Source: Thermoplasmata archaeon
Lineage (GTDB): Archaea; Thermoplasmatota; Thermoplasmata; Lutacidiplasmatales; UBA184
DNA: 64,000 nucleotides
Direction: 5' to 3'
Assembly (NCBI GenBank): GCA_022750055.1
Contig: JAKIWL010000002.1
Location: 409,729-473,728, forward strand
The position numbers and the translations under genes are program-made. Positions 5,723-63,300 of the stretch are shown here, piece by piece (position 1 is the stretch's first letter; the number at the start of each line of letters is the position of its first letter). The notes under the pieces were generated by a model. That model ran no database searches. It saw only the letters and a list, made by a program, of their open reading frames with translations, and was not told the DNA's origin.

Positions 5723-5917
5723 ATACAACGGAGCGGAGCGCGTCCGAGGTCGATCGTCCTCGTTCGGGACATCTCCTCGGTGAGCCGGCGGAGTTCGCCG
5801 AGTGGGCCGGGCTCGAGACGCACCGCGACCGTGCGACTCCACGACGCGCTGGATCCACCGGCTCGCTTCGGCCCCCGCAAAGGTGGCATTATTATGGTGG
5901 ACCTGGGTGGGACGACG

Positions 5918-6976
5918 ATGGCAAAGCGCCGGTCTCTCACCCGCCGGAACCTGTTGAAGAAGAGCGTCCAACCGGTCGACGTGACACGGGTGCGTGGATC
6001 AGGGGATCTCCTCCGGGCGTTCCAGAGTACCTCGATCCAGGCGCGCAACCTGGGACGGTGCCTGTCGGTGTGGGAGAATGCGCTCACCGACCCGAAGCGA
6101 CCGACCATCCTCATCGGTCTCTCCGGACCCCTCATCGCCGCGGGTCTTCGAAAGGTGCTTCGGGACCTCGTGGACTGGGGACTCGTCGACGTGGTCGTTT
6201 CCACCGGCGCGGTCCTCTACCAGGACATCTACCAGACCGTCGGAGGTCGGCACTGGGTGGGTTCCCCCGACGCCGACGACGTCGAGCTAAGGAAGCTCTA
6301 CCTCGACCGGATCTACGACACCTATGTCGACGAGCTCAAGTTCGAGGAGACCGACCGGGCGATCGGCCGCGTCACCGAACGGTTCCCGGCCCGCCCGGCG
6401 TCTTCGAGAGAGTTCCTCGAGTTCCTGGGACGCGAGTTCCGCGATCCAGAGTCGATCGTAGCCACGGCCTCCCGACGGGGGGTTCCTGTCTTTTCCCCCG
6501 CGCTGATCGACAGCTCGATCGGGATCGGTCTCACGCTCCATTATCAACGCAATCGCGGCAAGCCCCGATTCATGCTCGATGCGGTCCGGGACAACTATGA
6601 GCTCGTCCAGATCCTCTCGCATTCCCCGCGGACCGCGGTAGTGTACATCGGTGGAGGGACGCCGAAGAATTGGATCAACGACGGGATCGTCATGGCCAAC
6701 TACGCCTTCGGGCGGGAAGGGGAGGGCCACTACTACGCCCTCCAGATCACGACCGACGTGCCCCATTGGGGGGGGCTCTCGGGGAGCACGCTCGATGAGG
6801 CCCAGTCCTGGGGCAAGATCTCGCCCACCGCCACGCGCGCGATGGCCCACGTCGACGCGTCCATCGGCCTCCCGATCCTGGTCGGTGCCTTGTGGGACCG
6901 TCGCAAGGTCTGGCAGCCGCGGCGGCGGCTTCGATTCGAATGGGACGGTGACGAAATAACTCGGGTCGTGCGGTAA
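5918..6976 (+). CDS. dys: Deoxyhypusine synthase
   Basis: VVSTGAVLYQD, LDRIYD, PALIDSSIG, IGGGTPKNW, GGLSGSTLDEAQSWGK (catalytic Lys); ATG 5918 follows a TTATTA box by ~25 nt. Confidence 0.9.
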   Translation: MAKRRSLTRRNLLKKSVQPVDVTRVRGSGDLLRAFQSTSIQARNLGRCLSVWENALTDPKRPTILIGLSGPLIAAGLRKVLRDLVDWGLVDVVVSTGAVLYQDIYQTVGGRHWVGSPDADDVELRKLYLDRIYDTYVDELKFEETDRAIGRVTERFPARPASSREFLEFLGREFRDPESIVATASRRGVPVFSPALIDSSIGIGLTLHYQRNRGKPRFMLDAVRDNYELVQILSHSPRTAVVYIGGGTPKNWINDGIVMANYAFGREGEGHYYALQITTDVPHWGGLSGSTLDEAQSWGKISPTATRAMAHVDASIGLPILVGALWDRRKVWQPRRRLRFEWDGDEITRVVR

Positions 6977-7039: not shown

Positions 7040-7684
7040 ATGCCTCTTGCCCGACCGGAGGGCAGCCGGATACCGCCCGGGCAGGTCTTGAACCGAGGGT
7101 TTCCGATCCTCCATGCCGGAACGATACCCACCGACCTGACCCGTGACACCTGGCGGCTGCGGGTCCATGGCGCCGTCGCCCATCCCTTCGAGCTCGCCTT
7201 CGCCGAGCTCCTCGAGTTCCCTCAGAAGGAGGAGGTCGTCGACATCCACTGCGTTACAAGCTGGACCAAATTGGACACCCGCTGGCGAGGAGTCCCGTTT
7301 CGATCGATCGCCGAGCGTGCGGCGCCTGATCCGGACGCCCGATTCGTGGTGATGGAATGCGAGCAGGGTTTCACGACCTCCCTGCCGATGCCAGCGCTCT
7401 TCGAGGACTCTGTCTTGCTAGCCCATGGCTATGGTGGAGCGCCGCTCGCTCCCGAGCACGGCGGCCCGGTTCGGATGCTCGTTCCGCAGCGCTACTTCTA
7501 CAAGAGCGCGAAATGGCTCAGGGGGATCAAGTTCGTGGTCCAAGACGAACCCGGATTCTGGGAGGTTCGTGGGTATTCCAACCTGGCCGACCCGTGGAAG
7601 CAAACTCGCTATGAGGTAGATGATGTTCGGGAGATCCACGCGATGCGCAAACGTTCCCTGTTCGAGCCCATCGTGCGAGGATAG
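7040..7684 (+). CDS. Sulfite oxidase-like molybdopterin-binding oxidoreductase (YuiH/MsrP-like)
   Basis: IPPGQ, DIHCVTSW (Mo Cys), PEHGGPVR, YFYKSAKWL, PGFWE motifs. Confidence 0.88.
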   Translation: MPLARPEGSRIPPGQVLNRGFPILHAGTIPTDLTRDTWRLRVHGAVAHPFELAFAELLEFPQKEEVVDIHCVTSWTKLDTRWRGVPFRSIAERAAPDPDARFVVMECEQGFTTSLPMPALFEDSVLLAHGYGGAPLAPEHGGPVRMLVPQRYFYKSAKWLRGIKFVVQDEPGFWEVRGYSNLADPWKQTRYEVDDVREIHAMRKRSLFEPIVRG

Positions 7685-7785
7685 AGCATGGTGGTCCCCA
7701 GCAGGCAAGACGTAAAGTATTCGACCCGACGCCCGCCGTTGTGACGTAGGGATAGAATAAGGAATCTTATATTAGTGCGCATCTG

Positions 7786-7801
7786 CCCGTATAAATACGG
7801 G
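7786..7801. promoter_or_regulatory. Inverted repeat centred on a TATA box, probable promoter/operator of the peptide gene
   Basis: CCCGTAT-AA-ATACGGG containing TATAAATA in an AT-rich intergenic island. Confidence 0.55.
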
Positions 7802-7887
7802 TCGATTTACACCCCCAAGTTATACGACGTCGAGTGGATATTACTTAATACCCAATTCCCGACGGACGGGATGGAGGTGACTCGCAC

Positions 7888-7932
7888 ATGTACCTGCCGA
7901 TCGTTCCGCCCCTTCCTCGCGACCAACTCTAA
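7888..7932 (+). CDS. Putative 14-aa peptide MYLPIVPPLPRDQL
   Basis: GGAGGTGA (7873-7880) 7 nt before ATG; TAA at 7930-7932; upstream TATA; downstream hairpin. Confidence 0.6.
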   Translation: MYLPIVPPLPRDQL

Positions 7933-7948
7933 ACCATTAAGGTTGGAC

Positions 7949-7968
7949 GGGGGGGTTCCTACCCCCCC
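7949..7968. terminator. G7-TTCCTA-C7 hairpin at the convergence of the peptide gene and the STAND regulator
   Basis: GGGGGGG TTCCTA CCCCCCC; overlaps the regulator TAG stop; no U-tract. Confidence 0.35.
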
Positions 7969-10427
7969 TCCGCCTGCTCGGCCGGTGAAGGGAGCTGCGA
8001 GGCTCCTGAGGCCGAGCCACCCGAGCCTCTCGACCGGAGGTTCTCGATCTTCGACTTGAACTCCGATTCCATCTGGTCCACCCACCACTGCATTCCCATC
8101 GATGCGGCGAGCTGTACCGCCGCATGGTACTCCTGCCGGGCGAGGGAGGCCTCTCCCAACGCGGTGTAGACCTCCGTCAGGTAGGATCGCGCGAACACGA
8201 GCGAGTCCGACACCGGCAGTCGGCTGAGCACGAGCACGCTCCGCTCGGCGTGTTCTCGCGCCTGCCCGAGCTTGCCCTGTCGCAGTTCTCCGGCCGCCAG
8301 GGCCGCGAGAGTGTGCCCTAGGACCGTCTCGTTGCCGAGGCGTTCGGCAAGTCCGATCGCCTCCCGGGCGAACTCTCCGGCCTCCTCCCACTTGCCGGCC
8401 TCCATCGTCATCGCCACGAGTCCGCTCAGGGTGTAGATCAGCTCGTTGAGGTGTCCCTTCGCCTCGGTCTCGGCGCGGATCTGGCGCATCTCCAGGTCGG
8501 CCAGTTCGGGTTTCCCGGTCTCCTGGTAGGCCCGGGCGCGAACGAGCAGGAGGTTGAAGACGAGCTCCATCTGGCCCGACGCGCGCGCTTCGGGAAGGCC
8601 CTGTTCGACCATCCGGAGGGCGACCTCGTGCGCCCCGCCGATCGAGGCCTGTCGGGACCAACGAGCCAGGGCCTCGAGCGCCACCTCGGATTGACGGTCC
8701 TTTCGAGCCTGCTCAAAACACGTCTGGAACAGCTCCCGTGCCTTGGCGAGGTCCCCGCGAGCCTCCACGAGCCGGGCCTCGTAGAATTGGAACATCGACC
8801 GGAGCCGCTTCGTCGTCGGAGCGGACCGCCGGGCCTCGTCGAGGGTCGCTCGGGCGCTCTCTACCTGCTTGAGCCGGATCTGAAGGTCGGCGATCTTGAG
8901 CTGGCATTCGGCCCGGGTACGGCGGTCTTCGCCGGCATCCGTGCTAGCACGCCGTAGGAGCAGGATCGCCTCGGAGTATTCGGAATGGGTCCGCAGGAGC
9001 TCGGCCTGGACGCGCAGCGCCCTGAGGCGCCCCGGCCCGAGGGGCATGGCGAGGGTCATGTGGTTGAGGGCGTTTCGCAGGGCATCCGAGTAGCCGAGCG
9101 AGAGGATCTTGGTCTCCTCGCGAGAGAGGACCTCGGAGGCCGACCGCCAATCCTCCCCGGCCACGAGATGGAGGAACCGCTCCCGGACCATGTCGGATCG
9201 GTGGCTGCGCAGGTAGTACGAGGCGAGGGTGCGATGGGCCTCCAGGTCGAGCGGCCCGGCCCGGCTAACGATGGCCCGACGGATCGCCTCGAGAATCTCG
9301 ACACGGCCCTCCCCGGTCGGGTGCAGGATACCGATCCGGACCAGCTCGTCGAGCCGTTCGGGGCTCATCCGTCCGAATTCGGTCAGAAACGTCAGCGGAA
9401 GGGGGGCGTTGGCCAACGCGACCGGCAGTAGGTCGGCCAGCTCCGAGCTCGGCATCTTCGCGACCACCGCGTCGGGAAGGGTGGACGGCTTCGCCTCGAC
9501 GCCAGGATTCAGGACGGCGAGTTGGAGCATCAACGGGCTGCCGAGCGACGCCTGGTAGACGCTTTCGAAGCGGTCCGCGAGGCCGCCCTGTCGATCGGTC
9601 AGTTCGTGGGCGGAGGCGCGGTCGAGTCCCCCGATCTCCAAGCGCCGTATCTCCGATTCCCCGGCGATCATGAACGGGGGCTCCTGTCCCACCATGAAGA
9701 ACAGCGACTTTCCTTCGATCAGGAGTGCGGGAAAGAACTCCGAAAGGAAGCTTCTGAGGTCGGGACCGCCGAACTGGACGTCGTCGAGGACCCCGAGCAG
9801 ATGGTGGTCACGGAGGGCGCGGAGGACGAGGCTCGCGACCACCCGTCCGGTAGGCGGTCGGGGGACCTCGGCATAGTAGGCGAGCTGAGAGGCTCCCAAG
9901 GGGGCCAGCGCGTGGGCGATCGCCTCCAAGAAGTGTCGGGGAGACGACCCGGGCCGAACCGTGAACCAGAACGGAACCCTACCCCGTTTGAGACGCCACA
10001 CATGCTGAGCCACGAGGGCGGTCTTTCCCATGCCTGGGGCGCCCTGGACCCAGATCAGCGATTCCGGGTCGTCTGAAAACTCGGCGAGCCGGCGGAGCTC
10101 GTCGCGGCGTCCCATGAAGGGCCGGGGAGGAACGGGGAGTTCAGCCGGTAGCATCGGGACGTATCGGGCCTGTTTGTGGAGCACCTCCCGTCCGTCCGGG
10201 GTCAGTCGGTAGACGAGCTGTTTTCGGACCCCGCCGCGAACCAGCCCCCGGTGGGCCTCCAGTTGACGCTCGGACACGAGCGTCTGCAACGGCCTCGACA
10301 TCGAGCAGGGGTGGTAGCCGAGGGATTGGGCGAGTTCCCCCTGGGAGATCCCGAACGGCCCTTCGTCGGAAGTGTGGGTCCCGACGTAGTCGAGGATCTC
10401 GGTGTGGACGTAGGTCTTGACTGGCAC
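7959..10427 (-). CDS. wHTH-ATPase-TPR (STAND/MalT-like) transcriptional regulator
   Basis: N-terminal wHTH (GISQGELAQSLG...VYRLTPDG), FMGRRDEL pre-ATPase motif, Walker A GAPGMGKT, Walker B LLGVLDDVQ, GSPLML, C-terminal TPR-like helices; GTG 10427 chosen as start. Confidence 0.85.
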   Translation of the reverse strand: MPVKTYVHTEILDYVGTHTSDEGPFGISQGELAQSLGYHPCSMSRPLQTLVSERQLEAHRGLVRGGVRKQLVYRLTPDGREVLHKQARYVPMLPAELPVPPRPFMGRRDELRRLAEFSDDPESLIWVQGAPGMGKTALVAQHVWRLKRGRVPFWFTVRPGSSPRHFLEAIAHALAPLGASQLAYYAEVPRPPTGRVVASLVLRALRDHHLLGVLDDVQFGGPDLRSFLSEFFPALLIEGKSLFFMVGQEPPFMIAGESEIRRLEIGGLDRASAHELTDRQGGLADRFESVYQASLGSPLMLQLAVLNPGVEAKPSTLPDAVVAKMPSSELADLLPVALANAPLPLTFLTEFGRMSPERLDELVRIGILHPTGEGRVEILEAIRRAIVSRAGPLDLEAHRTLASYYLRSHRSDMVRERFLHLVAGEDWRSASEVLSREETKILSLGYSDALRNALNHMTLAMPLGPGRLRALRVQAELLRTHSEYSEAILLLRRASTDAGEDRRTRAECQLKIADLQIRLKQVESARATLDEARRSAPTTKRLRSMFQFYEARLVEARGDLAKARELFQTCFEQARKDRQSEVALEALARWSRQASIGGAHEVALRMVEQGLPEARASGQMELVFNLLLVRARAYQETGKPELADLEMRQIRAETEAKGHLNELIYTLSGLVAMTMEAGKWEEAGEFAREAIGLAERLGNETVLGHTLAALAAGELRQGKLGQAREHAERSVLVLSRLPVSDSLVFARSYLTEVYTALGEASLARQEYHAAVQLAASMGMQWWVDQMESEFKSKIENLRSRGSGGSASGASQLPSPAEQAEGG

Positions 10428-10460
10428 TGACTCGGGGTAGACCGTCCGGCTACTTATCCT

Positions 10461-10476
10461 TATTTTGTACAAAATA
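10461..10476. promoter_or_regulatory. Perfect 16-bp palindrome between divergent promoters (candidate operator)
   Basis: TATTTTGTACAAAATA, between an AT box for the regulator (~10451-10459, minus) and TTTATGTA (10487-10494, plus). Confidence 0.7.
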
Positions 10477-10520
10477 GCAGGCAGGGTTTATGTACGATGC
10501 CGGGAACTGAGTCCTTTGCA

Positions 10521-10790
10521 ATGACGCAACCGAGCGAATCGGGCAAGCCCGTCGGCGGCATCGGAACGATGCTGATGCAGTCCGACGTCTGCCCGGCGTG
10601 CGGGAAGGTCCACAACAGTCGATTGGTACGCTACCTGCCGTCGGTGGGTCAACTGATGGGCACCCCCACCGCCTATCCGACAAGCCCCGTCTCCACGGAA
10701 TCCGCTCGATCGCCCCGGGTTCGCGGCCGGAAGCCCTCGAACATGCCGTTGTTCTGGCCGATGCCCCAGTCCTCTGAGGGGTACCCATGA
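10521..10790 (+). CDS. Small hypothetical protein with CPACGKVH zinc-knuckle-like motif
   Basis: ATG ~27 nt after TATA; shares CPxCxKxHxxRLVRxL with next ORF; ATGA overlap with it. Confidence 0.65.
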   Translation: MTQPSESGKPVGGIGTMLMQSDVCPACGKVHNSRLVRYLPSVGQLMGTPTAYPTSPVSTESARSPRVRGRKPSNMPLFWPMPQSSEGYP

Positions 10791-11098
10791 GTCCGCCGGA
10801 GTCCCTGGCGAACGGCTGGAAGCTGCTCCCGAAGTTCGACATCGAGGGAGAGTCGACCCACACAGGCCGCAGCGGTCACACCGACTCCCTGTCGCTCCCG
10901 TGCCCGGTCTGCCGCAAGTCCCACGGCGCTCGGCTCGTCCGCAGCCTGGTCGTCTCCCCGATCACGCCGCCCCGCGAAACGATCCCGAAGGAGCCTCGGA
11001 TCGATTCCCGATACTACCCACCGGCCGTGCCCGTCCTCTCCCGGCAATCCAAGGGCCCGATCAACCTGTCGGCCCGTTGGTCGCTCTCGGTCGTCTAG
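10787..11098 (+). CDS. Small hypothetical protein with CPVCRKSH motif, paralogue of upstream ORF
   Basis: SD-like GAGGGG, ATGA coupling, CPVCRKSHGARLVRSL. Confidence 0.65.
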   Translation: MSPPESLANGWKLLPKFDIEGESTHTGRSGHTDSLSLPCPVCRKSHGARLVRSLVVSPITPPRETIPKEPRIDSRYYPPAVPVLSRQSKGPINLSARWSLSVV

Positions 11099-11391: not shown

Positions 11392-11493
11392 AAACCCAGG
11401 GCGACGATGACGCCCGGATATCTCATCGAAGCCGATCCCAGGGCCGCAAACGAAAGATACTTCCAGGGGGGTTCCTCCGCCCTGGTATCGCTG

Positions 11494-11718
11494 ATGTCCG
11501 AGACCCGATGCGCGAACTGTGGAGGGTCGCTCGAACCCGGGTTCGTCTCCACCACGAACGGGTCGGGCCTTTTTTGGTCCCACGAGGCGAATTCGACCCG
11601 CCTTCGACCCAAGGGTCTCGAAGTCCTCGTCCCGACCGGATTCCAGGGGACCTACTCGGCGAACATCCCCGGGCTGCGCTGCGGGGCCTGCGCAACGATC
11701 CTGTTGCGCCTGAAATAG
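11494..11718 (+). CDS. Small zinc-ribbon protein (DUF6487-like)
   Basis: CANCGGSLEPGFV...LFW...RCGACATI pattern with two CxxC pairs. Confidence 0.7.
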   Translation: MSETRCANCGGSLEPGFVSTTNGSGLFWSHEANSTRLRPKGLEVLVPTGFQGTYSANIPGLRCGACATILLRLK

Positions 11719-11730
11719 GCCTCGGGCCCG

Positions 11731-13137
11731 TTAGGCGCCGGCCACGCTCAACGACCCTACCGAAAGGGCGGGGGCCGACAATTGACCCACCAGGGTCGGG
11801 CGGCCCCCTACTGCGCTCACCGACCGGAGTAGCGACGGCTCTCCGGGGGCCGCCAAGGCAACCCCTCCGACCGTTCCGCCTCGGACCGGGGTCGAGAGCT
11901 TTCCGTCCTTGACGAGGTACCCGAGGCGGATCTCCCCACCGAACGCGCCCGAGACCGGGTCGGGAAACGAGTAGCCAAGCTGGTCGACCCACAGGCCCTC
12001 TCCAAGGGCCTCGATCATCTCCTGGTCCGATCCCCCGTCGCCCGGGCCCAACACCATGGTCGAGGGACCGGGATTGGGCCGGATCATGAAATGGAACCAG
12101 GGGGACAGGGTCGCGGTGTCCCGGCGCCCACCCCCGGTGGACTGATCGCTGAGCGCACGGCCGTGGAGAACGTCGTAGATCGGTTCCCGGAACTCCCCGG
12201 ATTGGATCAGGGGCCGTTTGGCGTGAAGAACCCCTTCATCGTCCCACGGTGCGGAGGCGAGGCCGTACGGATAGAGCCCGTCATCCCAAAGGTCGATGTT
12301 GGCCCCCCCCACGGCCGACCCCTTCGGCGGCATCATTCCGCGAAGGGCGGCCTGACCGCCCAAGCGGAACCCGAGGGTCGCCGGCAAGATCTCGCTCAGG
12401 ACCTCAGGAGGGAGAAGCACCTGGCGTACCCCGGGCGGGGTGGGCGACGCGCTCCCTGCATCCCGGGCTTTCCGAGACCATTCGAGGCCCTGGGAAGCGA
12501 TGGCACGGTGGTCCAGGCAGCAGCTCCGCTGGTTGACCCAGTACTCCCCCGACCCGGGCCCTTCCGGTCCTGCGGTGGATCGGACGGCGAACTCGAGCTC
12601 GGCCGAGGTTCTCTGAAAGCTCGCCTTGGCCCCCGAGGAGTTCGCGAAGGTGACGTCGATGAGCGCGACTCGAAGCGACCCAAAGCTCGGACGGACGTCC
12701 TTGCGACCATCGAACGGAGCCAGGACCTCCGAGACGAACCGCTCGATGGACGCCTCCGGGCGCGCCCAGAGCTCCGGATCGGCACTGAGGACGGTGCCCG
12801 AGCTGGGTAAACTCCCAGGGAGCGAAACGTCCTTCGCCGGGAAGGAGGAGAATCGCGAGGCGATCGTGGCTTCCTCTATCGTCCGGGCGACCCCGGCCGT
12901 GGAAACGTCGGTCGACCCGGCGAACCCGACTCGTACGCCCCCGTTGTGGGGCGCGATCACCCGATACCCGTATCCCTCGAGCTGGATGGGCCCCCGCGTC
13001 ATCTCGACCTGGTCGCCGTTGATGTGGATCTCGAAACGACGGATCGCCTCCCCGTACACGTCCCAGGGCCCCGGGGCCCGGCGCACGCGGTCGGCCACTC
13101 GAAACGCGGTCTCGGCCGAGGAGAACGGGGCGGTCAC
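11731..13137 (-). CDS. pmbA: PmbA/TldE family metalloprotease modulator
   Basis: PWDDEG, DPVSGAFGG and YLVKDGKL motifs, no HExxxH; GTGA overlap with tldD. Confidence 0.82.
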   Translation of the reverse strand: MTAPFSSAETAFRVADRVRRAPGPWDVYGEAIRRFEIHINGDQVEMTRGPIQLEGYGYRVIAPHNGGVRVGFAGSTDVSTAGVARTIEEATIASRFSSFPAKDVSLPGSLPSSGTVLSADPELWARPEASIERFVSEVLAPFDGRKDVRPSFGSLRVALIDVTFANSSGAKASFQRTSAELEFAVRSTAGPEGPGSGEYWVNQRSCCLDHRAIASQGLEWSRKARDAGSASPTPPGVRQVLLPPEVLSEILPATLGFRLGGQAALRGMMPPKGSAVGGANIDLWDDGLYPYGLASAPWDDEGVLHAKRPLIQSGEFREPIYDVLHGRALSDQSTGGGRRDTATLSPWFHFMIRPNPGPSTMVLGPGDGGSDQEMIEALGEGLWVDQLGYSFPDPVSGAFGGEIRLGYLVKDGKLSTPVRGGTVGGVALAAPGEPSLLRSVSAVGGRPTLVGQLSAPALSVGSLSVAGA

Positions 13138-14528
13138 GCGGGCCCCACGATCGCTTCGGAGAGCAGGTACGGACCCCCGGTCCCGGTCGGAAGGAGGTCG
13201 GTGTGTCCCTTGCCGCAATATCCCGGGCTCATCTCGAAGTCCTCCTTCCGACTGACCCCTCGGATGGCGGTCAAGAATTCTAGCACACGGCCGGAGAGCG
13301 CCATGGAGGGACGGATCGGCCCGATCTCGCCGCCCCGGACGAGATGGCCCTTCTTCACCTTGATCTGCATGTTTCCTCCGAGCGGGTCCTCGATGCCGCT
13401 CGTGCAGGATTCGAGGATCACGCCATCGCGCATCTCCCGGACCATCTCCTCAAGGTGCATCGCCCCGGGTTCCACGAATGTATTCGTCATCCGGACGAAC
13501 GGGCGGCTCAGGAAGTCGGCCCGTCGGGTGTTCCCCGTGGCTCTTCGATGGAGCGCGGCGGCTGTCTCCCGGTCGTGGAGCGCCTCGATGAACTTTCCGT
13601 GATCGACTAGGACGGTCCTCCCGGAGGGATGGCCCTCATCATCGAAGAAGATCGAACCCCATCCCCCCGGGAGCGAACCATCGTCGACCAGCGTCAGGCT
13701 CTCGGGCCCGAGGACCTTTCCAAAGAGGGGCTTGAGGTACGAACGGTCCCGCAGCATCTGGTCGGCCTCAGCGCCGTGTCCGAACGATTCATGGGCGAAC
13801 GTGCCCGACGCGCTCGGGTCGAGCAGCACCTTCATCCGGCCGACGGGAGGCGAGGGAGCCTGAAGGAGCTCGACCGCCGCATGGGCGGCCCGGCTCACCC
13901 GTTCCGGAGTGATCTCTGCCAGGATCTCCGCCCCACCCATCCCCCCACGGCCCGTGAAGTCGTACTCCACCTTTCCATTCTCGATCGCCAGGGCGGCGAC
14001 GGCCCCCCGGGTCCGGTCGATGGTCTGGAGCGTCCGGGCCCCAGCCGTGGAGAGGAACAGTCGGATGTCGGTCCGCGATTGGATCGTCGCATACGCATTC
14101 CGAATGCCTTTCACTTCGGTCGCCCAGGCGAACCAGGTCTGAGCGAGTGCGACCCGTTCGGAGACCGGAACCTCACCCATGGGTTGTTGGGTCTTCGTCG
14201 AGGCCTCGCCGCGCTGAGTGGAGGACTCCCCCGGTGGGTCGGGGGCGCCGCCGGCGAACCCGAGATGTTGGATGAGGGAGTCGGCGGCCGTCGTGAGCGA
14301 ATCGGCCTCGAGTCCGCTCGCGCCCGCCTCGGTCCATCCCTTGGGTCCCCATGCCCGGAACATGGCCCCTCGAAACCCTGGAGAGGGCTCGACCACGGTC
14401 GCGGAGCGGTCGTACCGGACGAGGTGGCTGGTGGTCTCCTCGGCCATCACCTCCGCATAGGGCGCATGTCGTTCGATCCGGTGGAGGAGCCGGGCGAGGA
14501 GGTCGTCGACCTCAACGACTCCGGGCAT
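13134..14528 (-). CDS. tldD: TldD family metalloprotease
   Basis: HESFGHGAEAD zinc motif, FDDEG, VRMTNTF, CGKG; SD GGAGGGG. Confidence 0.92.
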   Translation of the reverse strand: MPGVVEVDDLLARLLHRIERHAPYAEVMAEETTSHLVRYDRSATVVEPSPGFRGAMFRAWGPKGWTEAGASGLEADSLTTAADSLIQHLGFAGGAPDPPGESSTQRGEASTKTQQPMGEVPVSERVALAQTWFAWATEVKGIRNAYATIQSRTDIRLFLSTAGARTLQTIDRTRGAVAALAIENGKVEYDFTGRGGMGGAEILAEITPERVSRAAHAAVELLQAPSPPVGRMKVLLDPSASGTFAHESFGHGAEADQMLRDRSYLKPLFGKVLGPESLTLVDDGSLPGGWGSIFFDDEGHPSGRTVLVDHGKFIEALHDRETAAALHRRATGNTRRADFLSRPFVRMTNTFVEPGAMHLEEMVREMRDGVILESCTSGIEDPLGGNMQIKVKKGHLVRGGEIGPIRPSMALSGRVLEFLTAIRGVSRKEDFEMSPGYCGKGHTDLLPTGTGGPYLLSEAIVGPA

Positions 14529-63225: not shown

Positions 63226-63300
63226 GGGCCCATAGCTTAGGCTGGCTGGAGCACCCGGCTGATAACCGGGAGGTCGTCGGTTCAAATCCGACTGGGCCCA
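63226..63300 (+). tRNA. tRNA-Ile(GAT)
   Basis: Acceptor GGGCCCA/TGGGCCC, anticodon arm CCCGG-CTGATAA-CCGGG, T arm GTCGG-TTCAAAT-CCGAC; no encoded CCA. Confidence 0.96.

What the first reader, a model, noticed from the sequence alone, without database searches (positions are those of the whole stretch)
7873..7968. Unannotated 14-codon gene whose product resembles the regulator's own HTH-ATPase linker
Seen: GGAGGTGA, the complement of the 16S 3' end, lies 7 nt before ATG 7888, and no plus-strand gene follows, so it is not a leader peptide of a downstream gene. MYLPIVPPLPRDQL reads like a compressed version of regulator residues RYVPMLPAELPVPPRPFMGRRDEL (~10095-10165): Y[LV]P[IM][VL]P, VPP, RD[QE]L. 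The first divergent microprotein has RYLPSV and the second YYPPAVP. Inference: a mimic peptide could displace an auto-inhibitory linker. Short Pro-rich matches can arise by chance.
Basis: partly seen in the sequence, partly recalled or inferred. Interest (0 to 1): 0.82.

Follow-up and report, generated by a model that had tools for sequence, protein, structure and literature searches.

The report
Conserved mini-gene beside archaeal STAND regulator
A 14-codon gene in uncultured soil archaea is real, strongly conserved and always sits tail-to-tail with a large sensor-type regulator, which points to an undescribed peptide-regulator pair, but it does not mimic the regulator's own linker as first proposed.

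Summary
The sequence features are all present: GGAGGTGA at 7873-7880, ATG at 7888, 14 codons, TAA ending at 7932, a G7/C7 hairpin at 7949-7968, and no plus-strand gene before 10497. The genome is an uncultured Thermoplasmata archaeon.

The mini-ORF is a real gene. An SD-led 13-16 codon ORF was tabulated at 95 of 97 orthologous places (86 distinct peptides), and a 96th holds a variant. Third codon positions vary most, and pN/pS is 0.49 in frame against 1.0 and 1.9 out of frame.

It always converges on a wHTH-NOD-TPR STAND regulator related to PH0952. Homologues of that regulator at 26-28% identity, and in three other families, carry different Pro-rich mini-ORFs (MDPNPGGSWP, MDPPPKDPN and others) at the same spot. 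No other neighbour is shared.

The proposed linker mimicry fails. The score is no better than for shuffled peptides. The Y..P match occurs in 2 of 29 orthologues. No covariation survives phylogenetic correction.

Best reading, about 0.4: the peptide is the regulator's cognate intracellular partner or ligand. Main rival: a cis-acting, proline-dependent translational sensor. No description was found in print. Structure tools were off, so binding is untested.

The parts
7757..7770 (+). Inverted repeat 1 of the mini-gene's upstream region (ATAAGGAATCTTAT)
   Evidence: Conserved position in the alignment of 36 loci. The two arms change in concert (TAAG..CTTA in some loci, CAG..CTG in others). No other close copy in the genome (best others carry 2-3 mismatches).
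7773..7785 (+). Conserved [AG]TGCGCAT box
   Evidence: T.CGCA is conserved in at least 80% of 36 loci. An ATGCGCAT box also lies upstream of the unrelated MDP-type mini-ORFs of genus g19 (read from the sequences printed).
7786..7801 (+). Inverted repeat 2 (CCCGTATAAATACGGG), probable operator
   Evidence: Perfect palindrome. Its counterparts in other loci are CCCKCAT-N2-3-ATGCGGG. Unique in the genome.
7844..7851 (+). TATA-box-like element (CTTAATAC; TTAAATA in most relatives)
   Evidence: TTA..TA is conserved in at least 80% of 36 loci, and ends about 22 nt before GGAGGTG. From recalled archaeal promoter geometry, the inferred transcript start is at or just before the SD. The base before the SD is C or T in 94 of 95 loci.
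7873..7880 (+). Shine-Dalgarno sequence GGAGGTGA
   Evidence: Complement of the 16S 3' end. GGAGGTG is kept in 90 of 95 loci, and 4-11 nt (mode 8-9) separate its end from the start codon.
7888..7932 (+). 14-codon gene, MYLPIVPPLPRDQL plus TAA
   Evidence: Conserved in 95 tabulated loci (lengths 13:8, 14:69, 15:7, 16:11). Entropy at codon positions 1/2/3 is 0.81/0.62/1.41, and pN/pS is 0.49 in frame against 1.01 and 1.94 out of frame.
7940..7975 (.). GC-rich hairpin between the two convergent genes (core G7 7949-7955, loop 7956-7961, C7 7962-7968). The regulator's stop codon lies in the loop.
   Evidence: A stable hairpin of differing sequence follows the stop in the 95 folded loci (median -33 kcal/mol per 70 nt; z below -2 in 52 of 95).
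7959..10427 (-). STAND regulator: wHTH + AAA_16 NOD + TPR sensor. Probable GTG start at 10427; the open frame runs to 10472.
   Evidence: Pfam HTH_IclR 6.9e-7, AAA_16 2.3e-6, TPR_12 1.1e-8, TPR_MalT 6.9e-7. A profile of 50 orthologues matches PH0952 (PDB 6MFV) at 8.5e-21. The start is inferred from the TATA-like element 22 nt upstream.
7864..8081 (.). Stretch covered by one contig of a soil metatranscriptome library
   Evidence: run X2, a 218-nt contig at depth 8.8 with 2 differences, one of them the synonymous CAA>CAG at 7926. Strand unknown, and DNA carry-over is not excluded.
10460..10477 (.). Palindrome TTATTTTGTACAAAATAG between the divergent regulator and d1 promoters
   Evidence: Present with at most 2 mismatches in 38 of 40 loci, flanked by mirror-image TTTAAGTAG boxes. 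Unique in the genome.

Best explanation
Positions 7888-7932 are a genuine, efficiently translated 14-codon gene. It has its own regulated archaeal promoter and forms a conserved two-gene cassette with the convergent STAND transcription factor (wHTH effector, NOD ATPase, TPR sensor).

Most likely (inferred, not shown), the 13-16 residue Pro-rich peptide is made in its final form inside the cell and acts on its cognate regulator. It probably acts as the ligand or partner of the TPR sensor, switching the NOD between resting and oligomeric states. The regulator in turn acts on the unique palindromes in front of the mini-gene and/or in front of its own divergent promoter.

Shown: the gene is coding, it is conserved, and it is always paired with the regulator across deep divergence. 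Inferred: that peptide and regulator bind, and the direction of control.
For: Coding:
- SD, start and stop are kept in 95 of 95 tabulated loci, giving 86 distinct peptides.
- Variation is 3-periodic, and pN/pS is 0.49 in frame against 1.01 and 1.94 out of frame. P4 is kept in 68 of 68 distinct 14-codon sequences, P7 in 66 of 68 and Q13 in 58 of 68.
- No Rfam family reaches its threshold.

Pairing:
- The gene is convergent and adjacent in 36 of 37 loci and in 22 of 23 further hits.
- It is present at 39 of 40 regulator 3' ends that the search patterns had missed.
- The upstream molybdopterin gene varies, being present in 24 of 49 loci.
- Sister families have DHS but neither the regulator orthologue nor the mini-ORF.

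The peptide tracks the regulator, not the ribosome:
- Homologues at 26-28% identity within the same organismal family carry unrelated 10-11 codon peptides (MDPNPGGSWP and similar) 2-53 nt past their stop, in 5 of 5 loci.
- Three further families carry MDPDLPPKNPT, MDPPPKDPN or VAGPPKDPN, and MAGPRPTDDPS, abutting or overlapping the stop. These are 5 of 20 loci, all with GC of at least 0.64.
- DHS, d1, d3 and TldD/E are absent near these distant cassettes.

Sensor type: after PH0952, the best solved-structure matches of the regulator profile are the TPR regions of the peptide receptors NprR (2e-5) and RapF (4e-3).

Chance: only 6 comparable SD-led ORFs exist in the genome.
Against: - No binding test could be run.
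- No covariation between peptide and regulator survives phylogenetic correction.
- The strict tail-to-tail geometry, with gaps from -4 to about 215 nt, is not needed for a diffusible ligand and hints at a cis component.
- All peptide classes are Pro-rich or Asp-Pro-rich, as expected for aIF5A-dependent translation rather than for a specific ligand.
- The NprR and RapF matches are weak and may reflect generic TPR similarity.
- 15 of 20 distant STAND homologues showed no such mini-ORF by the SD criterion.
- The mini-gene's promoter palindromes differ from the palindrome at the regulator's own promoter, so one protein binding both is not evident.
- All genomes are MAGs, and there is no proteomic evidence.
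Confidence: 0.4

Rival explanations
1. Cis-acting translational sensor. Translation of the Pro-rich mini-ORF stalls or terminates slowly, depending on aIF5A, proline or a small molecule. Ribosome occupancy next to the shared hairpin then sets how far the mini-gene's transcript reads antisense into the regulator's 3' end, or how stable the two overlapping RNAs are. This would tune regulator expression.
For: - Every peptide class contains PP, DP, PPK, DDP or a C-terminal Pro. Such motifs are recalled as EF-P/eIF5A-dependent.
- The tail-to-tail position is invariant, with a hairpin starting 0-17 nt after the stop in the folds. In family f27 the two stop codons overlap.
- The spacing from PP.P to the stop is kept while the N-terminus varies by 0-2 residues.
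- Stop-codon choice is skewed: TAA 62, TAG 30 and TGA 3 of 95, against TGA 0.50 and TAA 0.10 in the genome's long frames.
- One RNA-library contig bridges the mini-ORF, the hairpin and 120 nt of the regulator's end.
- Deoxyhypusine synthase lies upstream in 45 of 49 loci.
- A minigene encoding apidaecin (SD, start, stop) arrests ribosomes at stop codons in bacteria (PMC11347161, passages).
Against: - Organisms of one family, with near-identical ribosomes, use entirely different peptides next to diverged regulators. That fits a regulator-specific target better than a ribosomal one.
- Residues far from the C-terminus (Y2, hydrophobic residue 3, P4) are as conserved as those near it.
- Pro codons are not biased to rare codons.
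- There is no alternative antiterminator structure, only a single hairpin.
- The strand of the RNA contig is unknown.
- DHS linkage is confined to family f1.
Confidence: 0.27
2. Independent microprotein. The peptide is merely the regulator's dedicated output gene, or a neighbour inherited with it. It acts on some other target, such as the ribosome exit tunnel, an enzyme, or the nearby d1/d3 zinc-ribbon proteins or TldD/E peptidases.
For: - The elaborate palindromes in front of the mini-gene are unique in the genome, suggesting a dedicated regulator with a single target.
- The outline Y-[LI]-P-x-x-P-P-x-P...L-COOH recalls apidaecin 1b as printed in PMC11347161.
- Synteny with d1, d3 and TldD/E holds within family f1.
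Against: - Distant cassettes keep only the regulator as a neighbour.
- The residues critical for apidaecin (penultimate Arg, P11, R12) are not matched. The penultimate residue here is Q in 58 of 68 sequences.
- As the linker test showed, Pro-rich resemblance is cheap.
Confidence: 0.2
3. One reading: the peptide mimics the regulator's own HTH-ATPase linker and displaces it from an auto-inhibitory groove.
For: Literal matches exist in this one genome: YLPIVP against YVPMLP, plus VPP and RD[QE]L. There is a raw association of peptide residue -4 with the linker PP[N/H]PF position in 43 of 46 loci.
Against: - 32% of shuffled peptides score as high. Only 1 of 28 loci reaches 0.05 or better.
- The Y and the second P of the linker occur in only 2 of 29 orthologues.
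- The association rests on 2 and 5 changes on the tree, and 1 of 4 independent pairs co-changes.
[quoted passage not shown] That construct lacked the N-terminal domain, however.
Confidence: 0.04
4. Not a gene: a chance ORF within a non-coding RNA or a terminator region.
For: It is very short. No proteomic data exist. Rfam gives only sub-threshold noise.
Against: Frame-specific constraint and retention of SD, ATG and stop in 95 loci. Zero hits to reversed-pattern controls in 150 genomes.
Confidence: 0.01

Closest known systems
RRNPP peptide-receptor pairs of Firmicutes and their phages (Rap/NprR/PlcR/PrgX, arbitrium)
   Same: A small peptide gene lies directly next to a TPR-bearing intracellular receptor that is often a DNA-binding regulator. 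Peptide sequence diversifies with the receptor. The intergenic distance falls within the -60 to 400 bp used to define such pairs (PMC10075063, passages). NprR and RapF are the best non-STAND structure matches of the regulator's TPR region.
   Different: - The organisms are archaea.
- The peptide (9-16 aa) has no room for a signal sequence or pro-region, so it is probably not secreted or processed.
- The receptor is about 820 aa with a STAND NOD ATPase, not 250-500 aa.
- The genes are convergent.
- No sequence homology of the peptides.
PH0952 of Pyrococcus horikoshii and MalT: STAND transcription factors with a TPR sensor
   Same: Same architecture: N-terminal winged-helix DNA-binding effector, NOD, arm and TPR sensor (PMC6468293, passages; Pfam). 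The profile matches 6MFV at 8.5e-21 over the NOD-arm region.
   Different: Single-sequence identity is too low for phmmer to find. The inducer of PH0952 is not given in the passages read, and MalT's is a sugar (recalled). No encoded peptide partner is mentioned in the 6 papers that hold 'PH0952' (listing only).
Regulatory leader and arrest peptides (recalled: TnaC, SecM, Erm leaders, Trp/His leaders) and the apidaecin minigene
   Same: A tiny SD-led ORF whose amino-acid sequence is conserved, followed closely by a hairpin. It is Pro-rich with a conserved C-terminus. Apidaecin binds the exit tunnel in nascent-chain orientation and traps release factor at the stop codon (PMC11347161).
   Different: There is no co-directional downstream gene to control. 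The target, if any, is a convergent gene. Apidaecin's critical penultimate Arg is not conserved. Peptides differ wholesale between regulator clades. No stalling has been shown.
Eukaryotic upstream conserved coding regions that sense polyamines and eIF5A (recalled: AZIN1 uCC, AMD1 uORF)
   Same: A short conserved Pro-containing ORF whose translation depends on the hypusinated factor. Here deoxyhypusine synthase is a syntenic neighbour in family f1.
   Different: It is not upstream of the regulated gene. DHS linkage is absent in the other families. The comparison is recalled only and was not tested.

Membership tests
RRNPP quorum-sensing pairs (five criteria of PMC10075063) | Propeptide is small (10-100 aa) | tested here: met
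   13-16 aa in 95 loci. The distant classes of 9-11 aa are at or below the lower bound.
RRNPP quorum-sensing pairs (five criteria of PMC10075063) | Propeptide is secreted (N-terminal basic plus hydrophobic signal) and processed to a 4-10 aa mature peptide | tested here: not met
   By inspection of the 86 peptides. There is no basic N-terminus and no hydrophobic stretch, and the total length equals that of a mature peptide. No SignalP run was available.
RRNPP quorum-sensing pairs (five criteria of PMC10075063) | Receptor is 250-500 aa | tested here: not met
   About 822 aa, with an AAA_16 NOD.
RRNPP quorum-sensing pairs (five criteria of PMC10075063) | Receptor carries TPRs | tested here: met
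   TPR_12 1.1e-8 and TPR_MalT 6.9e-7. NprR TPR match at 2e-5.
RRNPP quorum-sensing pairs (five criteria of PMC10075063) | Receptor and peptide genes are direct neighbours | tested here: met
   The regulator's stop lies 67-215 nt after the mini-ORF's start codon in 33 loci. Adjacency holds in 36 of 37 loci.
PH0952/MalT-type STAND transcription factors (for the regulator) | NOD (P-loop NBD-HD-WHD) homologous to the clade | tested here: met
   GxxGxGK[ST] in 29 of 31 orthologues printed. AAA_16. Profile against 6MFV at 8.5e-21, covering profile positions 100-534.
PH0952/MalT-type STAND transcription factors (for the regulator) | DNA-binding effector domain at one end and a TPR sensor at the other | tested here: met
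   HTH_IclR-like wHTH at residues 26-72. TPR hits at 498-790.
PH0952/MalT-type STAND transcription factors (for the regulator) | Inducer-triggered ADP/ATP switch and multimerisation | not testable with these tools
   Needs biochemistry.
Attenuation leader / arrest peptides | The sORF lies upstream of, and is co-transcribed with, the gene it controls | tested here: not met
   No plus-strand gene lies between 7932 and 10497. The neighbour is convergent.
Attenuation leader / arrest peptides | Mutually exclusive terminator and antiterminator structures, or a demonstrated ribosome stall | tested here: inconclusive
   A single hairpin follows the stop and no alternative pairing was sought systematically. 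Stalling is not testable here.
Type II proline-rich antimicrobial peptides (apidaecin-like) | C-terminal ...P-R-L with an essential penultimate Arg, and P11 and R12 (PMC11347161) | tested here: not met
   The penultimate residue is Q in 58 of 68 sequences. The C-terminal residue is L in 53 of 68. R or H sits at -4. This is a resemblance of outline only.

The most novel reading that the evidence does not exclude
Archaeal PH0952-like STAND receptors, whose inducers are unknown, may be switched by genetically encoded mini-peptides of 9-16 residues. These would be translated in mature form from convergent mini-genes, giving an intracellular peptide-signal system with cognate peptide-receptor pairs that co-diversify across Thermoplasmata families. 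Every peptide class is rich in Pro-Pro or Asp-Pro, so the amount of peptide made could report aIF5A/hypusine (polyamine) status. That would explain the deoxyhypusine synthase neighbour in family f1.
Probability: 0.2. Interest if true: 0.9.

Novelty: new variant of a known kind. Interest (0 to 1): 0.78.

Why it matters
Genes of 9-16 codons are invisible to gene callers, and very few have a known role in archaea. This one has unusually clean comparative evidence for translation. It also has a fixed partner: a STAND NTPase of the PH0952/MalT type, a class whose archaeal members have no known inducer.

If the peptide is the inducer or partner, this would be the first encoded peptide-STAND receptor pair. 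It would also be an archaeal counterpart, without secretion, of the RRNPP systems. If instead it is a proline-dependent translational sensor acting on a convergent gene, it would be a new regulatory geometry and the first arrest-type peptide proposed in archaea.

Either way, a synthetic 14-mer and a recombinant regulator make the question directly testable.

Tried and rejected
- Rfam at gathering threshold over the window found only a tRNA at 63226-63300. A permissive scan of 7600-8100 gave nine sub-threshold hits, the best being 17.7 bits against a cut-off of 58.6. RNA-family explanations were dropped.
- The sigma-70 promoter and intrinsic-terminator scan found nothing. It is not relevant to an archaeon.
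- A DNA search of 40 relatives with the 291-nt spacer found only 3 matches. This was too insensitive, and was replaced by degenerate codon patterns.
- Linker mimicry: rejected.
- Shared motif with the divergent proteins: RYLP[STA]V in only 3 of 30. Rejected.
- DHS as the true partner: rejected as the conserved partner. Five sister-family genomes have DHS without a mini-ORF within 1.5 kb, and distant cassettes lack DHS.
- RiPP precursor for the TldD/E peptidases: the synteny holds only within family f1. Not pursued.
- A shared operator between the mini-gene promoter and the regulator promoter: not found.
- Metatranscriptome: parts of 7300-8700 outside 7864-8081 had no cover in RNA run X2. That is no evidence of silence. 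The DNA runs X1, X3 and X4 held fragments at 90-99% identity only.
- phmmer of the regulator against PDB sequences found no hit. The profile search superseded it.
- Complex prediction was not used, because the peptide is 14 residues and the tool asks for chains of 30 or more.
- Fold search was not used, because no model could be made.
- The search for homologous proteins, the search of protein representatives and the protein-atlas search were not used, because a 14-aa query is below their limits.
- Literature searches listed nothing describing this cassette. Only listings and abstract starts were seen for those. The STAND phylogeny supplement of PMC6468293 and the candidate datasets of PMC10075063 might bear on clade assignment and on any archaeal hits.
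Full report
**What is at the coordinates**

The 275-nt spacer 7685-7958 lies between a plus-strand molybdopterin-oxidoreductase-like gene (7040-7684; PF00174, 1.7e-41) and a minus-strand 837-codon open frame (7959-10472). Within the spacer:
- GGAGGTGA is at 7873-7880.
- ATG is at 7888.
- The frame reads MYLPIVPPLPRDQL, with TAA at 7930-7932.
- A G7-TTCCTA-C7 hairpin occupies 7949-7968. Its loop holds the regulator's stop codon.

The genome is archaeal. The archaeal SSU model scores 1486 bits, some tRNAs are of intron-bearing length, and the 16S rRNA ends ...GGATCACCTCCT, the exact complement of the SD. It is 1.52 Mb at 67% GC. Its relatives are titled 'Thermoplasmata archaeon' MAGs, and the runs holding near-identical DNA are soil metagenomes.

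**Is the mini-ORF a gene? Yes.**

- A codon-degenerate pattern for SD + M-Y-[LF]-P-x-x-P-P hit 37 of 150 genomes of the genus, once each. The reversed-pattern control gave 0 hits.
- A second pattern for the C-terminal half hit 53 of 150, with 1 control hit. The union is 60 of 150.
- Across 401 genomes of the class, the pattern occurred only in the window's family. It hit 17 of 59 genomes there plus the window's own, and 0 of 342 elsewhere, with 2 control hits.
- The patterns were too strict. I fetched 40 places just beyond the 3' end of regulator orthologues. Most of them had no pattern hit; four were hits not fetched before. Of these, 39 held an SD-led Pro-rich ORF of 12-16 codons in the same position and orientation. 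The 40th was only 121 nt long.

In all, 95 loci were tabulated out of 97 places in 94 genomes. One further locus holds a variant, and one is too short. The tabulated set shows:

| Feature | Values |
|---|---|
| Distinct peptides | 86 |
| Length (codons) | 13: 8; 14: 69; 15: 7; 16: 11 |
| Start codon | ATG 91; GTG 4 |
| SD | GGAGGTG in 90 |
| Spacing from SD end to start | 4-11 nt, mode 8-9 |

In the 68 distinct 14-codon sequences, the entropy at codon positions 1, 2 and 3 is 0.81, 0.62 and 1.41 bits. Pooled pN/pS is 0.49 in frame, against 1.01 and 1.94 in the other two frames. P4 is invariant, and P7 is kept in 66 of 68.

The consensus is M-[YWF]-[LIMVF]-P-x-x-P-P-[VLIM]-P-[RHTQ]-[ED]-Q-L.

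The whole genome holds only 6 GGAGGTG-led ORFs of 8-17 codons, so recurrence by chance is excluded. These are related genomes, not independent trials. The frame-specific pattern is the argument, not a p-value.

**Anatomy around the gene**

About 135 nt upstream are conserved in order:
- an inverted repeat whose arms change in concert (7757-7770);
- a TGCGCAT box (7773-7785);
- a second palindrome (7786-7801);
- a GTATA[TA]C box;
- a TATA-like TTAAATA (7844-7851), ending about 22 nt before the SD.

The base before the SD is a pyrimidine in 94 of 95 loci. From recalled archaeal promoter geometry, I infer a transcript that starts at or just before the SD. The two palindromes have no other good copy in the genome.

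A stable hairpin of varying sequence follows the stop in all 95 folds.

One contig of a soil metatranscriptome library (218 nt, depth 8.8) covers 7864-8081, running from 9 nt before the SD into the regulator's last 120 nt. One of its two differences is synonymous (CAA>CAG). Its strand is unknown, and DNA carry-over cannot be excluded.

**The partner**

The minus-strand protein has a winged-helix domain, an AAA_16 NOD and TPR/MalT-like repeats. A profile of 50 orthologues (A1) matches PH0952 of Pyrococcus horikoshii (6MFV) at 8.5e-21. The next matches are the TPR regions of NprR at 2e-5 and RapF at 4e-3. [quoted passage not shown]

Orthologues at 44% identity or more occur in 122 of 180 genomes of the family. 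The mini-gene converges on this regulator in 36 of 37 loci, with the 37th cut by a contig end, and in 22 of 23 further hits, by comparing the coordinates.

Within the family the wider order is also syntenic: deoxyhypusine synthase, (molybdopterin gene), mini-gene, regulator (convergent), then d1, d3 and convergent TldD/E. DHS is present in 45 of 49 large loci and the molybdopterin gene in 24 of 49.

Outgroups separate the candidate partners:
- Five genomes of two sister families have DHS at 50-56% identity. They have no regulator orthologue (at most 27% identity) and no SD-led Pro-rich ORF within 1.5 kb of DHS.
- Regulator homologues at 26-28% identity in genera g18 and g19 each carry a different 10-11 codon ORF, GGAGGTG-led and convergent, 2-53 nt past their stop. 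This holds in 5 of 5 loci. The peptides are MDPTEPPSLFP, MDPNPGGTWP, MDPTVPPDAWP, MDPNPGGSWP and MDPNPGSSWP.
- Among 20 more distant STAND homologues from other families, 5 have such an ORF abutting or overlapping the stop. All 5 have GC of at least 0.64. The peptides are MDPDLPPKNPT, MDPPPKDPN, VAGPPKDPN (twice) and MAGPRPTDDPS. Differences between the loci are synonymous where the peptides agree. The other 15 showed none by my SD criterion, and one of those was not assessable.
- None of these distant cassettes has DHS, d1, d3 or TldD/E nearby.

The conserved unit is therefore regulator plus convergent mini-gene.

- The peptide-linker score in the window (24) is matched by 32% of shuffled peptides. 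Only 1 of 28 loci reaches 0.05 or better.
- In orthologues the linker reads ET[RK][ED]VP[LI]LSG[EA][LI]P[PA]PP[NH]PF[LF]GR..EL. The Tyr and the second Pro of 'YVPMLP' occur in only 2 of 29.
- 'RD[QE]L' aligns with the canonical start of the AAA_16 domain.
- RYLP[STA]V is in 3 of 30 d1 homologues.
- A raw link between peptide residue -4 (R against H/T/Q) and linker PP[N/H]PF is concordant in 43 of 46 loci. It reduces to 2 and 5 changes on the regulator tree. Of 4 independent pairs, 1 co-changes and 3 do not.

The mimicry idea is not supported. The broader intuition that peptide and regulator belong together is.

**How it most likely works**

Two readings fit.

(A) The peptide is the regulator's cognate intracellular partner or ligand.
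- For: peptide sequence is tightly conserved within a regulator clade. It is replaced wholesale between clades that live in near-identical cellular backgrounds.
- For: the sensor is a TPR array of a kind that binds short peptides in RRNPP receptors (PMC10075063, passages).
- For: no inducer for PH0952 is named in the passages read.

(B) The mini-ORF is a cis-acting translational sensor.
- For: every class is rich in PP or DP motifs.
- For: the geometry is strictly tail-to-tail with a hairpin.
- For: the distance from PP.P to the stop is fixed while the N-terminus varies.
- For: TAA is used in 62 of 95 loci and TGA in 3 of 95, although TGA ends half of the genome's long frames.
- For: an apidaecin minigene arrests ribosomes at stop codons in bacteria (PMC11347161, passages).
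- Against: the peptides are clade-specific, there is no co-directional target, Pro codon usage is unbiased, and apidaecin's critical residues are not matched.

I put A at about 0.4 and B at about 0.27. A and B are not exclusive: translation that depends on aIF5A could set the level of a peptide that the regulator senses.

**Limits**

- All genomes are MAGs.
- No proteomics and no stranded RNA data are available.
- The complex tool does not take a 14-residue chain, so binding is untested.
- The wider-family cassettes rest on 10 loci and on an SD-based detector that would miss leaderless mini-ORFs.
- Promoter, transcript-start and terminator roles are inferred from sequence and from recalled archaeal rules.

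**Novelty**

Six full-text searches listed no description of a mini-ORF paired with a PH0952-like STAND regulator, nor of peptide-TPR receptor pairs in archaea.

Against the five RRNPP criteria, the cassette meets three: a small peptide, a receptor with TPRs, and adjacent genes. It fails two: secretion of the peptide, and a receptor of 250-500 aa.

I file it as a new variant of the 'encoded peptide plus TPR receptor' kind. It may prove to be categorically new if the cis mechanism or the aIF5A link holds.

Noticed in passing
window 5780-6976 (+): Deoxyhypusine synthase (PF01916, 1.3e-81) lies upstream of the Pro-rich mini-gene, in the same orientation, in 45 of 49 large loci and in three other genera of the family. 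It is not found near the distant cassettes. The enzyme modifies aIF5A, the factor recalled to relieve Pro-Pro stalling.
   Followed up: partly
window 10427-10500: The regulator/d1 divergent promoter region has mirror-image TATA-like boxes (CTACTTA.. / ..TTTAAGTAG) around a perfect palindrome, TTATTTTGTACAAAATAG (10460-10477). It is kept in 38 of 40 loci and is unique in the genome. The regulator probably starts leaderless at GTG 10427, not at TTG 10472.
   Followed up: partly
window 10497-10790 (+) and 10787-11098 (+): d1 is a conserved family without a Pfam match. It has an N-terminal GGIGTML.Q.DVCPxCG.VH motif and a C-terminal PWPMPS.LEDYL tail, with a variable middle. d2 looks like a local duplicate, found only in the 3 closest relatives.
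   Followed up: partly
window 11407-11718 (+); 11731-13218 (-); 13134-14528 (-): A DUF6487 zinc-ribbon-like protein (d3), followed by a convergent pair of TldD/PmbA-type metallopeptidases. They are syntenic with the cassette throughout family f1 but absent near the distant cassettes.
   Followed up: partly
L200-L204, L206-L210 (genomes G272, G440, G509-G511, G379, G249, G374, G305, G498): A second class of convergent mini-ORFs sits at the 3' end of diverged STAND regulators. They are MDP-type, 9-11 codons, and several end in Pro or have Pro at -2. In family f27 the two stop codons overlap.
   Followed up: partly
95 orthologous mini-ORFs (window 7930-7932): Stop-codon choice is skewed to TAA (62) and TAG (30), with TGA only 3. 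In the genome's open frames of 300 codons or more, TGA is 0.50 and TAA 0.10. Many loci also have a short T-run (CCGTTTTCC-like) between the stop and the hairpin.
   Followed up: partly
L036/L068 (G153:C2:804525-807094): The regulator next to an intact mini-ORF (MYLPVVPPVPREQL) is matched in three overlapping pieces. This is either a frameshifted pseudogene or errors in a long-read assembly (6 contigs, 63% complete).
   Followed up: no
G158 (C4, C5), G095 (C137, C23), G520 (C43, C39, C9): Three MAGs hold two or three regulator copies. At least two copies in each were examined, and each sits beside a different mini-ORF (for example MYIPTFPTPLQDQQ and MCVFVPCVPPLPQDQL in G158). G095 and G520 share one identical peptide, so mis-binning is possible.
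   Followed up: no
whole genome G000: Only 72 of 423 GGAGGTG sites are followed by ATG or GTG at 4-11 nt, and about 40 of those open ORFs longer than 60 codons. Strong SD-led genes are therefore a small minority in this archaeon, which makes the mini-gene's perfect SD stand out.
   Followed up: partly
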